64,000 nucleotides of DNA, from sequence record PP359570; one strand, written 5' to 3'. The stretch comes from Escherichia phage ALITA. The notes under the pieces are model-generated. The model was not told where the DNA came from. It ran no database searches and saw only the letters and a program-made list of their open reading frames with translations. Below, piece by piece: positions 19,932-20,414 of the stretch; the stretch's first letter is position 1; each line of letters opens with the position of its first letter. Made by a program: the position numbers and the translations under genes.

Positions 19932-20414
19932 ATGGAACAACAAAAAGATAATACTATTGCAAAATTTGCTCGTCCAGAAGTAATGGTTGAAATTGATCTG
20001 GATGAAGGACGCAGTGTAAAATTTAGAGTTCTCAAGTGGAGTCCAACTAAAGTTTTTGAAAGGATTCCAGAACTAGGTAGTGTACTAGCTGTTCCTATGA
20101 CAATGTATAATACTGCTCTTATGTCAGCAGACGAAGATCTAGAAGCTCGTATTGCTATGGCACTGATCCAATTATTCAGTGGTCTGGAAGAAAAAAACTT
20201 AGCCACATTCTTACGTAAAATTTTAGATGAAGTTTACACAGAAGCAGGCCACAGTGTTTCCGATAATTTTGATGAATTGTTTTTTGCTCACCCAGAATTA
20301 GTTGTTGACTTAGCTGCAAAAGTTCTTGAGGTGAACTATGCCCCTTTTTTCAAACGAGGTTTCGGAAAACTGTTGACCCAATTTCAAGGAATAGAGACTC
20401 TAGCGAAGAGTTAA
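19932..20414 (+). CDS. tail assembly chaperone (G-like)
   Basis: 160-aa acidic ORF between tube and tape measure; slippery heptamer TTTTTTC at 20345-20351 inside its 3' end. Confidence 0.5.
   Translation: MEQQKDNTIAKFARPEVMVEIDLDEGRSVKFRVLKWSPTKVFERIPELGSVLAVPMTMYNTALMSADEDLEARIAMALIQLFSGLEEKNLATFLRKILDEVYTEAGHSVSDNFDELFFAHPELVVDLAAKVLEVNYAPFFKRGFGKLLTQFQGIETLAKS

What the first reader, a model, noticed from the sequence alone, without database searches (positions are those of the whole stretch)
20330..20414. Candidate programmed -1 frameshift in the tail assembly chaperone gene
The ORF between tail tube and tape measure (19932..20414) overlaps a second open frame (20330..20689) that is in the -1 frame and lacks its own SD. 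A slippery heptamer T TTT TTC lies at 20345-20351 in the zero frame. This is the conserved G/GT-type arrangement of tailed phages.
Basis: partly seen in the sequence, partly recalled or inferred. Interest (0 to 1): 0.5.

Follow-up and report, generated by a model that had tools for sequence, protein, structure and literature searches.

The report
Unannotated tail-chaperone frameshift in phi92-like phage
This is an ordinary but so far unannotated example of the classic phage trick in which a few ribosomes slip back one base near the end of the tail assembly chaperone gene and make a longer second protein; comparison with dozens of related phages strongly supports it.

Summary
The window is a phi92-like E. 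coli myophage (Justusliebigvirus). ORF 19932-20414 is a tail assembly chaperone (Pfam Phage_TAC_15) lying between the tail tube and tape measure genes. The -1 frame is open from 20330 to 20689. T_TTT_TTC sits at 20345-20351 in the zero frame. A slip there gives a 252-aa (28.9 kDa) fusion.

The comparative evidence is strong:
- 26 of 27 diverged relatives, down to about 26% protein identity, keep NNT-TTT-TTC at the same codons.
- Relatives that lost it carry another slippery heptamer at or near the same place (C_CCT_TTT, A_AAT_TTT, G_GGA_AAG).
- Synonymous change halves around the site.
- The stretch annotated as intergenic, between the ORF1 stop and the annotated TTG start of gp133, evolves as -1-frame coding sequence with no stops.
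- No start codon is conserved, and no in-frame fusion occurs in any relative.

There is no conserved downstream RNA structure. A Shine-Dalgarno-like GAGGTGA lies 10 nt upstream and may stimulate the slip.

None of the 19 GenBank records whose annotation I inspected joins the ORFs. A 2025 paper reports the equivalent frameshift in sister families. Verdict: real, a new member of a known kind, low surprise. No experiment has shown the fusion protein.

The parts
19932..20414 (+). Tail assembly chaperone short form (TAC-N, 160 aa, 18.1 kDa). Homologue of phi92 gp132.
   Evidence: Pfam PF21822 Phage_TAC_15 at 3.4e-22 (79.7 bits, cutoff 22) and phrog_3840 at 8.5e-54. 99.4-100% identical to gp132 of phi92-like phages. 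AF2 model has pLDDT 72, with residues 143-160 below 50.
20328..20334 (+). Shine-Dalgarno-like GAGGTGA, 10 nt upstream of T_TTT_TTC. Candidate 5' stimulator; this role is inferred.
   Evidence: An SD-like match of at least 5 nt lies 10-13 nt upstream in 16 of 27 representatives (12 of 13 Stephanstirmvirinae-like). Glu133 is GAG in 20 of 24, against 27% GAG elsewhere in the gene. The spacing fits the 9-14 nt reported for -1 stimulators (PMC5009743).
20330..20414 (+). Overlap window in which both the zero frame and the -1 frame are open (85 nt).
   Evidence: TGA at 20327-20329 closes the -1 frame upstream; the ORF1 stop is at 20412-20414.
20342..20351 (+). Slippery tract C_CCT_TTT_TTC. It holds two overlapping zero-frame heptamers, C_CCT_TTT (20342-20348) and T_TTT_TTC (20345-20351).
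   Evidence: NNT-TTT-TTC is present in 26 of 27 representatives, with synonymous divergence of 0.0, 0.0 and 0.07 at these codons against about 0.55-0.6 elsewhere. Other conserved Phe columns flip freely between TTT and TTC.
20351..20689 (+). -1 frame extension of the long form (112 codons plus stop). It holds an RFR motif (20357-20365), a variable linker, then a conserved C-terminal domain from about 20414.
   Evidence: Alignment of 45 extensions. Codon-position substitution pattern and absence of stops. phrog_16039 at 3.8e-45 on the distal 72 residues.
20462..20689 (+). ORF annotated in GenBank as a separate gene (phi92 gp133, TTG start, 75 aa). Here read as a fragment of the long form.
   Evidence: Annotated separately, without an RBS, in phi92. 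No SD-like sequence upstream. The start codon is not conserved in relatives.
19409..19888 (+). Tail tube gene (context, upstream neighbour).
   Evidence: phrog_280 at 1.8e-36; Pfam KPP10_Orf10. Annotated as tail tube or virion structural protein in relatives.
20709..22688 (+). Tape measure protein gene (context, downstream neighbour).
   Evidence: phrog_16051, tail length tape measure protein, 1316 bits; phi92 gp134.

Best explanation
This is a programmed -1 ribosomal frameshift of the lambda G/GT type in the tail assembly chaperone gene of a phi92-like myophage.

Most ribosomes read 19932-20414 and make the 160-aa short chaperone. A minority slip back one base when tRNA-Phe occupies both the P site (UUU) and the A site (UUC) on U_UUU_UUC at 20345-20351. 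The slip could equally happen one codon earlier, on the overlapping C_CCU_UUU. These ribosomes continue in the -1 frame from CAA at 20351 to the stop at 20687-20689 and make a 252-aa long form. It consists of the chaperone domain, a flexible linker and a conserved C-terminal domain.

The ORF annotated as 'gp133' is the tail end of this long form, not an independent gene.

The slip is probably helped by pairing of the upstream GAGGUGA with the 3' end of 16S rRNA. It is not helped by any conserved downstream RNA structure.

By analogy with lambda gpG/gpGT, the shared N-terminal part would coat the tape measure protein and the extra C-terminal domain would recruit tail tube subunits. The frameshift would fix the ratio of the two forms.

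Shown here: the anatomy, the conservation, the coding signature and the absence of a start codon. Inferred: the efficiency, the SD role and the protein functions.
For: 1. Identity and placement. ORF1 is a TAC (Pfam Phage_TAC_15 3.4e-22; phrog_3840 8.5e-54) lying between tube and tape measure genes.

2. Conservation of the signal. 26 of 27 representatives (<93% nt identity to each other; ORF1 protein identity down to about 26%) have NNT-TTT-TTC at the homologous codons. Synonymous divergence is 0.0, 0.0 and 0.07 there. It is 0.285 for codons 131-140, against 0.54-0.63 over codons 21-110 and 121-130 (0.45 at codons 111-120). On the same tree, other invariant Phe columns split 12:15, 12:10 and 9:18 between TTT and TTC.

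3. Motif turnover at or near the same site. Where TTTTTTC is absent, another zero-frame slippery heptamer is present: C_CCT_TTT in L041, L048 and KLEP7, A_AAT_TTT in Vibrio S4-7, and G_GGA_AAG in Rheinheimera Barba1A. All keep a homologous -1 extension.

4. The -1 frame is translated from just after the slip. The RFR motif forces invariant GGT-TTC in the zero frame (27/27 and 24/24). This places the shift between 20330 and 20357.

5. The 'intergenic' stretch 20412-20461 codes in the -1 frame. Pairwise differences at codon positions 1, 2 and 3 are 0.46, 0.40 and 0.67, the same as in annotated gp133 (0.48, 0.40, 0.67). Over 27 representatives there are 0 stops in the -1 frame, against 49 and 42 in the other two frames. 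Linker indels keep the frame.

6. No independent start. In the window there is no start codon between 20330 and 20462, and no SD before TTG 20462. No alignment column upstream of or within the N-terminal part of the conserved domain carries a conserved start (the only column where 40% or more of sequences have one lies deep inside the domain). In some relatives the first -1-frame start is 255 nt after the slip site, inside the conserved domain.

7. The two halves are never in one frame. All 45 database homologues are 151-175 aa and cover at most 60% of the fusion. All 44 listed tblastn places that hold both halves come as two pieces.

8. The motif is shift-prone in E. coli. U_UU.C is the second-best tetramer, and all-pyrimidine heptamers are favoured (PMC4066793).

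9. The equivalent frameshift, with a conserved GTTTTT motif, is reported in the related families Vandenendeviridae and Andersonviridae (PMC12846349).
Against: - No protein-level or reporter evidence exists for this phage group in the library searched.
- There is no downstream stimulatory structure. Fold z-scores are -0.06 to -1.5, and RNAalifold finds 0 consensus pairs in 13 relatives. Efficiency may therefore be low.
- The SD-like element is missing at the right spacing in 8 of 27 representatives, so it is not universal.
- Phe-Phe is itself conserved in the zero-frame protein, and one of the two patterns used to collect IMG/VR loci contained FF. The amino-acid conservation is therefore partly ascertained; only the codon-level conservation is unbiased.
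- A run of six T cannot by sequence alone exclude RNA polymerase slippage.
Confidence: 0.88

Rival explanations
1. The same 252-aa fusion is made, but by transcriptional slippage. RNA polymerase adds one extra U while copying the run of six T (20345-20350), and the edited mRNA is then translated normally.
For: The site contains a T6 homopolymer, conserved in 26 of 27 representatives. A one-base insertion would give the same reading frame and nearly the same protein, with one extra Phe. Nothing computed here can separate an mRNA edit from a ribosome slip.
Against: Known bacterial slippage sites use runs of about 9 A or T (PMC5009743); six is short. Homologous loci keep the two-frame arrangement with heptamers that are not long homopolymers: G_GGA_AAG, A_AAT_TTT and C_CCT_TTT. 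The conserved feature is the codon register NNT-TTT-TTC, including the final C and the zero-frame phase, which matters to a ribosome but not to a polymerase. An SD-like element at the spacing typical of ribosomal -1 stimulators is common.
Confidence: 0.05
2. There are two independent genes. The downstream ORF is translated on its own from TTG 20462 (75 aa), as GenBank records annotate it, and no fusion is made.
For: This is how phi92 and many relatives are annotated. TTG is used as a start by neighbouring genes (tube 19409, tape measure 20709).
Against: There is no SD-like sequence before TTG 20462, unlike all neighbouring genes, and the phi92 annotators list no RBS for gp133. The start is not conserved; annotated starts differ from genome to genome, and some relatives have no start codon until well inside the conserved domain. 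The sequence upstream of the TTG shows full -1-frame coding constraint with no stops. The slippery heptamer and its replacements would be left unexplained.
Confidence: 0.03
3. It is an assembly or sequencing artefact, or a pseudogene. The two ORFs are really one gene and a base is missing in the T run.
For: Homopolymer runs are error-prone in some sequencing chemistries.
Against: The same T6 and the same two-frame layout occur in 132 GenBank records and in independent metagenome contigs from many laboratories and platforms. No single-frame version exists among the 45 database homologues, and every listed tblastn match that spans both halves of the fusion comes as two pieces. The zero-frame tail after the site (GFG motif) is itself conserved.
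Confidence: 0.01

Closest known systems
Phage lambda gpG / gpGT tail assembly chaperone frameshift (Levin 1993; Xu, Hendrix and Duda 2004, 2013, 2014; summarised in PMC5009743)
   Same: Placement is between the major tail (tube) gene and the tape measure gene. There are two overlapping ORFs, with the second in the -1 frame and lacking its own start. [quoted passage not shown] The result is a short form and a long form that share an N-terminal domain. No strong RNA stimulator is present.
   Different: The heptamer differs: U_UUU_UUC (tRNA-Phe) instead of G_GGA_AAG (tRNA-Gly/Lys). The host phage is a 148-kb contractile-tailed myophage. There is no detectable sequence similarity to lambda G or T. 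The slip lies 21 codons before the ORF1 stop. A likely upstream SD-like stimulator is present. One distant homologue of the present gene (Rheinheimera Barba1A) does use G_GGA_AAG.
Conserved -1 frameshift with GTTTTT motif in the TAC locus of Vandenendeviridae (Pakpunavirus) and Andersonviridae (PMC12846349, 2025)
   Same: These phage lineages are related (the paper groups them with Vequintavirinae and Stephanstirmvirinae). The T-rich slippery motif sits at the 3' end of TAC-N. The downstream ORF is likewise routinely mis-annotated as a hypothetical protein. The argument rests on the same uninterrupted -1 frame.
   Different: That paper did not analyse Stephanstirmvirinae or Vequintavirinae TAC loci. 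In the phi92 group the base before the T run is C (CCT Pro), not G. This creates a second, overlapping heptamer, C_CCU_UUU. I did not align the present TAC with those families, so homology of the site itself is presumed, not tested.
E. coli dnaX and IS911/IS3 -1 frameshift cassettes
   Same: An X_XXY_YYZ heptamer has an internal Shine-Dalgarno-like sequence about 10 nt upstream, within the 9-14 nt range (PMC5009743).
   Different: Those cassettes also have a 3' stem-loop or pseudoknot and use A_AAA_AAG. Here no conserved 3' structure was found, and the SD role is untested.
T4-like phages: TAC short and long forms encoded without frameshifting (Vladimirov, Gautam and Davidson 2022, as cited in PMC10885494 and PMC12846349)
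   Same: Both are myophages that need a short and a long chaperone form.
   Different: In some T4-like phages the two forms are separate genes, a short copy and a fused long copy (PMC10885494). Here only one N-terminal copy exists, and no in-frame long gene was found in any relative.

Membership tests
G/GT-type programmed -1 frameshift of tailed-phage tail assembly chaperones | The gene pair lies between the major tail/tube gene and the tape measure gene. | tested here: met
   Tube 19409-19888 (phrog_280, Pfam KPP10_Orf10), TAC 19932-20414, tape measure 20709-22688 (phrog_16051).
G/GT-type programmed -1 frameshift of tailed-phage tail assembly chaperones | The first ORF is a tail assembly chaperone. 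| tested here: met
   Pfam PF21822 Phage_TAC_15 at 79.7 bits (cutoff 22); phrog_3840, 1613, 1688 and 11820, all named 'tail assembly chaperone'. The fold comparison is only weakly supportive: the top PDB hit is the HK97 TAC 2OB9, but at E = 0.47.
G/GT-type programmed -1 frameshift of tailed-phage tail assembly chaperones | The second ORF overlaps the 3' end of the first in the -1 frame and extends about 70-120 codons. | tested here: met
   The -1 frame is open 20330-20689, with an 85-nt overlap and a 112-codon extension after the slip. The same layout is seen in every relative examined.
G/GT-type programmed -1 frameshift of tailed-phage tail assembly chaperones | A slippery X_XXY_YYZ heptamer lies in the zero frame inside the overlap. 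| tested here: met
   T_TTT_TTC at 20345-20351 and C_CCT_TTT at 20342-20348. About 0.11 would be expected by chance.
G/GT-type programmed -1 frameshift of tailed-phage tail assembly chaperones | The signal and the frame arrangement are conserved beyond the needs of protein coding. | tested here: met
   Synonymous-site suppression, the same-tree Phe-codon control, heptamer replacement, and the -1 coding signature upstream of any start codon.
G/GT-type programmed -1 frameshift of tailed-phage tail assembly chaperones | The second ORF has no independent translation start. | tested here: met
   No start codon in the -1 frame from 20330 to 20461. No SD before TTG 20462. No start column is conserved upstream of or within the N-terminal part of the conserved domain across 45 sequences.
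G/GT-type programmed -1 frameshift of tailed-phage tail assembly chaperones | The fusion protein is produced at a low fixed ratio, and both forms are required for tail assembly. | not testable with these tools
   This needs a western blot or mass spectrometry, a reporter assay and genetics. No such data for phi92-like or rV5-like phages were found in the library.
SD-stimulated bacterial -1 frameshift cassettes (dnaX / IS911 type) | An internal Shine-Dalgarno-like sequence lies 9-14 nt 5' of the heptamer. | tested here: met
   GAGGTGA at 20328-20334 with a 10-nt spacer. It is conserved in 16 of 27 representatives, so it is present here but not universal. Its function is not tested.
SD-stimulated bacterial -1 frameshift cassettes (dnaX / IS911 type) | A 3' stem-loop or pseudoknot lies 5-8 nt after the heptamer. 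| tested here: not met
   There is only a weak local hairpin (-3.6 kcal/mol, 20358-20378). Fold z-scores are about 0. There are 0 consensus pairs in 13 relatives. No Rfam family reaches its threshold.

The most novel reading that the evidence does not exclude
The site may be more than a plain G/GT copy. It could be an extended 10-nt slippery tract, C_CCU_UUU_UUC, driven only by an upstream rRNA-pairing (SD-like) stimulator, with no downstream structure.

On this reading, homologous chaperones in sister lineages have swapped between four different heptamers (U_UUU_UUC, C_CCU_UUU, A_AAU_UUU, G_GGA_AAG). That would be a natural series for asking how the short:long chaperone ratio is tuned.

A stranger variant is that the long form arises by RNA polymerase slippage on a run of only six T.
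Probability: 0.15. Interest if true: 0.4.

Novelty: new member of a known kind. Interest (0 to 1): 0.22.

Why it matters
The main value is for annotation. The 132 GenBank records that match this region at the DNA level are phi92-like and phAPEC8-like phages. A search with the rV5 long form finds both halves of the chaperone in 353 records spanning Stephanstirmvirinae and Vequintavirinae. Several of these phages are being developed for therapy or biocontrol.

In all 19 records whose annotation I inspected, the chaperone long form is missing. The distal part is listed as a short 'hypothetical protein' with an arbitrary start, or the region is left as an unexplained gap of roughly 290 nt. PHROG families 16039, 10409 and 8811 ('unknown function') are probably the C-terminal domain of this long form.

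Beyond annotation, the site adds a well-supported case to the rule that long-tailed phages set the short:long chaperone ratio by recoding. It shows heptamer turnover within one homologous family. It does not change the understanding of frameshifting or tail assembly.

Tried and rejected
- Downstream stimulatory RNA. Single-sequence folds of four windows gave z-scores of -0.06, -1.48, +0.14 and +1.18. RNAalifold on 13 Stephanstirmvirinae-like sequences found 0 pairs. Per-sequence folds showed no shared hairpin. Rejected.
- Rfam scan of 19800-20800. Only sub-threshold hits (SraG-like on the terminator hairpin, and a CRISPR-DR hit at E = 0.02 on the minus strand). Rejected as chance.
- Search for a natural in-frame fusion. 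None was found in the 5.8-billion protein database or in phage genomes by tblastn.
- PDB sequence search with the fusion. Nothing better than E = 0.16.
- AlphaFold of the -1 extension alone gave pLDDT 46 and is unusable for fold search.
- The TAC-N model (pLDDT 72) gave the HK97 TAC as top PDB hit, but not significantly (E = 0.47).
- Other shift sites in the overlap. A_AAA at 20363-20366 is only a weak tetramer and is not conserved. A -2/+1 shift runs into a stop after 8 codons.
- The +1-frame ATG at 20338, which follows the SD-like sequence, opens only 12 codons and is not conserved.
- Literature searches for a described frameshift in phi92, rV5, phAPEC8, PVP-SE1 or Stephanstirmvirinae found none.
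- A search for papers on the TTTTTTC motif was swamped by primer sequences.
- The paper by Vladimirov et al. (2022) is not held.

Full report
**What the window is.** The region 19400-20720 is 99.3-99.8% identical to Escherichia phage phi92 and about fifty other Justusliebigvirus genomes (Stephanstirmvirinae). It is 60-80% identical to phAPEC8-like and Klebsiella relatives.

The local gene order is:
- tail sheath 17944-19350 (phrog_205);
- tail tube 19409-19888 (phrog_280, Pfam KPP10_Orf10);
- ORF 19932-20414;
- ORF 20462-20689;
- tape measure 20709-22688 (phrog_16051).

ORF 19932-20414 matches Pfam Phage_TAC_15 (3.4e-22, above the curated cutoff) and four PHROG chaperone families. It corresponds to phi92 gp132. 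The next ORF corresponds to gp133, a 'hypothetical protein' annotated from a TTG start. The phi92 annotators list no ribosome binding site for it, although they list one for gp130, gp132 and gp134.

**Checking the observation.** Every coordinate in the finding is right.
- The -1 frame is closed by TGA at 20327-20329 and is then open to the stop ending at 20689.
- The zero-frame codons are GCC CCT TTT TTC AAA, so T_TTT_TTC occupies 20345-20351 in the correct register.
- A second zero-frame heptamer, C_CCT_TTT (20342-20348), overlaps it. A slip on either gives the same protein.
- The predicted long form is 140 + 112 = 252 aa (28.9 kDa). The short form is 160 aa (18.1 kDa), and a TTG-initiated product would be 75 aa (8.9 kDa).
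- The -1 frame has no start codon between 20330 and 20462. TTG 20462 has no Shine-Dalgarno-like sequence, unlike all nine neighbouring genes checked.

As a chance estimate, the 55 long ORFs of the window contain 78 in-frame X_XXY_YYZ heptamers in 18,105 positions, so about 0.11 is expected in the overlap. This is the only in-frame TTTTTTC in those ORFs. It and its overlapping partner are the only heptamers followed by a long -1 read-out: 112-113 codons, against 31 for the next best.

**Comparative evidence for the signal.** I collected homologous loci from GenBank phages and from IMG/VR. I reduced them to 45 unique sequences and then to 27 representatives that are less than 93% identical to each other in nucleotides. 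They span Stephanstirmvirinae and Vequintavirinae (rV5, PVP-SE1, CR3, Hena1), with ORF1 protein identity to the window down to about 26%.

- All have a -1 ORF that overlaps the chaperone 3' end by 85-181 nt and extends 71-91 codons past its stop.
- 26 of 27 carry NNT-TTT-TTC at the homologous codons.
- The fraction of same-amino-acid sequence pairs that use different codons is 0.54-0.63 over codons 21-110 and 121-130 (0.45 at codons 111-120). It falls to 0.285 for codons 131-140 and 0.32 for codons 141-150. At the three heptamer codons it is 0.0, 0.0 and 0.07.
- As a control on the same tree, the other invariant Phe columns split 12:15, 12:10 and 9:18 between TTT and TTC. The heptamer columns are 26:0 and 1:26.

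One caveat applies. One of the two peptide patterns used to fish IMG/VR loci contained the Phe-Phe dipeptide. The amino-acid conservation is therefore partly ascertained; the codon choice is not.

**Motif turnover.** Where TTTTTTC is absent, a different slippery heptamer sits at or within a few codons of the same place, and the -1 extension remains homologous:
- C_CCT_TTT in two metagenomic phages and in Pseudaeromonas phage KLEP7;
- A_AAT_TTT in Vibrio phage S4-7;
- G_GGA_AAG, the lambda motif, in Rheinheimera phage Barba1A.

Aeromonas phage TS9 again has T_TTT_TTC. Replacement of one slippery sequence by another is hard to explain unless slipperiness itself is selected. Several of these motifs are not homopolymers, which argues for the ribosome rather than RNA polymerase as the slipping machine.

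**Evidence that the -1 frame is entered from ORF1.**
- Right after the heptamer the -1 frame encodes a conserved Arg-Phe-Arg/Val motif, while the zero frame encodes Gly-Phe-Gly/Ala. This double constraint explains the invariant GGT (27/27) and TTC (24/24) there. It places the shift between 20330 and 20357.
- A linker of variable length follows. The Vequintavirinae have about 20 extra Ser/Gly-rich residues, and every indel keeps the frame.
- A conserved C-terminal domain then begins about 16 codons upstream of the annotated TTG.
- The 'intergenic' stretch between the ORF1 stop and the annotated start shows pairwise differences of 0.46, 0.40 and 0.67 at -1-frame codon positions 1, 2 and 3. This is indistinguishable from annotated gp133 (0.48, 0.40, 0.67).
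- Across the 27 representatives the stretch from the ORF1 stop to the invariant Trp has 0 stops in the -1 frame, against 49 and 42 in the other two frames.
- No alignment column upstream of or within the N-terminal part of the conserved domain carries a conserved start codon (the only column where 40% or more of sequences have one lies deep inside the domain). In some Klebsiella and Raoultella phages the first -1-frame start lies 255 nt after the slip site, inside the conserved domain.
- The two halves are never in one frame. All 45 homologues in the 5.8-billion-protein database are 151-175 aa and cover at most 60% of the fusion. All 44 listed tblastn places that hold both halves come as two pieces.

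**Stimulators.** I found no downstream RNA structure. Fold energies of four windows are within shuffled expectation. RNAalifold finds no consensus pair in 13 relatives. The only local hairpin is -3.6 kcal/mol. Rfam has nothing above threshold.

Upstream, GAGGTGA (20328-20334) is a 7-nt match to the Shine-Dalgarno consensus. It lies 10 nt before T_TTT_TTC, inside the 9-14 nt range reported for -1 stimulators such as dnaX (PMC5009743).
- A match of at least 5 nt at 10-13 nt is present in 16 of 27 representatives, and in 12 of 13 Stephanstirmvirinae-like ones.
- The Glu codon involved is GAG in 20 of 24, although GAA is 73% of Glu codons elsewhere in the gene.

This is suggestive, not proof; eight representatives lack the element at that spacing.

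In E. coli reporter assays U_UU.C is the second most shift-prone tetramer, and all-pyrimidine heptamers are favoured (PMC4066793). So the motif is plausible in this host, probably at a low efficiency. That would suit a chaperone pair, which lambda needs at about 30:1 (PMC5009743).

**Structure.** An AlphaFold model of the short form (25-sequence alignment, pLDDT 72) is confident up to a helix ending at residue 141. It is disordered from residue 143 to 160. The slip at codons 139-140 therefore falls at the edge of the folded domain. Its best PDB match is the HK97 tail assembly chaperone 2OB9, but the score is not significant (E = 0.47). The extension modelled without an alignment is unusable (pLDDT 46).

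**Comparison with what is known.** This is the G/GT arrangement described for lambda and generalised by Xu, Hendrix and Duda (2004). All sequence-level defining features are met. The protein-level ones cannot be tested here.

A December 2025 paper (PMC12846349) argues on similar grounds for a conserved -1 frameshift with a GTTTTT motif in the chaperone locus of Vandenendeviridae and Andersonviridae. The same paper groups those families with Vequintavirinae and Stephanstirmvirinae. It did not treat the latter two.

In the library I found no description of the frameshift for phi92, rV5, phAPEC8 or PVP-SE1. None of the 19 GenBank records whose annotation I inspected joins the ORFs. They list a short downstream ORF with varying starts, or leave a gap.

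**Verdict.** The finding is real and correctly interpreted. It is a new, unannotated member of a well-known kind, with unusually clean comparative support. Its modest points of interest are the double heptamer, the likely SD stimulator without a 3' structure, and the heptamer turnover among homologues. Transcriptional slippage on T6 is the only rival that sequence analysis cannot fully exclude, and I rate it unlikely.

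Noticed in passing
window 19892-19911 (+): A terminator-like hairpin, AAAGGGCAGAAATGCCCTTT followed by ATTTTT, lies in the 43-nt gap between the tail tube gene and the chaperone gene. The phAPEC8 and FBKp34 GenBank records annotate a terminator at the same intergenic place. It may act as an attenuator that lowers chaperone and tape measure mRNA relative to sheath and tube mRNA.
   Followed up: partly
window about 18895-18987 (inside the sheath gene 17944-19350): The phi92 RefSeq record carries a 'Hypothetical tRNA' feature inside the tail sheath CDS. ARAGORN finds no tRNA anywhere in 17900-20800, so the feature looks spurious.
   Followed up: yes
GenBank records matching window 19400-20720: Some records 99.4-99.5% identical to this E. 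coli phage region are named Campylobacter phage (MG065639, MG065645, MG065656, MG065689), Serratia phage KKP_3264 and Salmonella phage UAB_1. Records of the phAPEC8-like group are named Acinetobacter phage ABPW7 and Pseudomonas phage PsgM04F. The host labels look doubtful or reflect contaminating coliphages.
   Followed up: no
window 20338-20376 (+): An ATG at 20338 in the +1 frame lies 3 nt (7 nt counting from GAGG) after the SD-like GAGGTGA, but it opens only a 12-codon ORF. The ATG is not conserved: the Tyr codon is TAT in 10 and TAC in 16 representatives. Probably chance.
   Followed up: yes
PHROG families phrog_16039, phrog_10409, phrog_8811: These 'unknown function' families match the -1 extension. 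The best, phrog_16039, begins exactly at the annotated TTG start, so it appears to be built from truncated gene calls. The families probably represent the C-terminal domain of the chaperone long form.
   Followed up: partly
window 19409, 20709, 23526 (+): Several structural genes in this module start with TTG behind good Shine-Dalgarno sequences: tube, tape measure, and the ORF at 23526.
   Followed up: no
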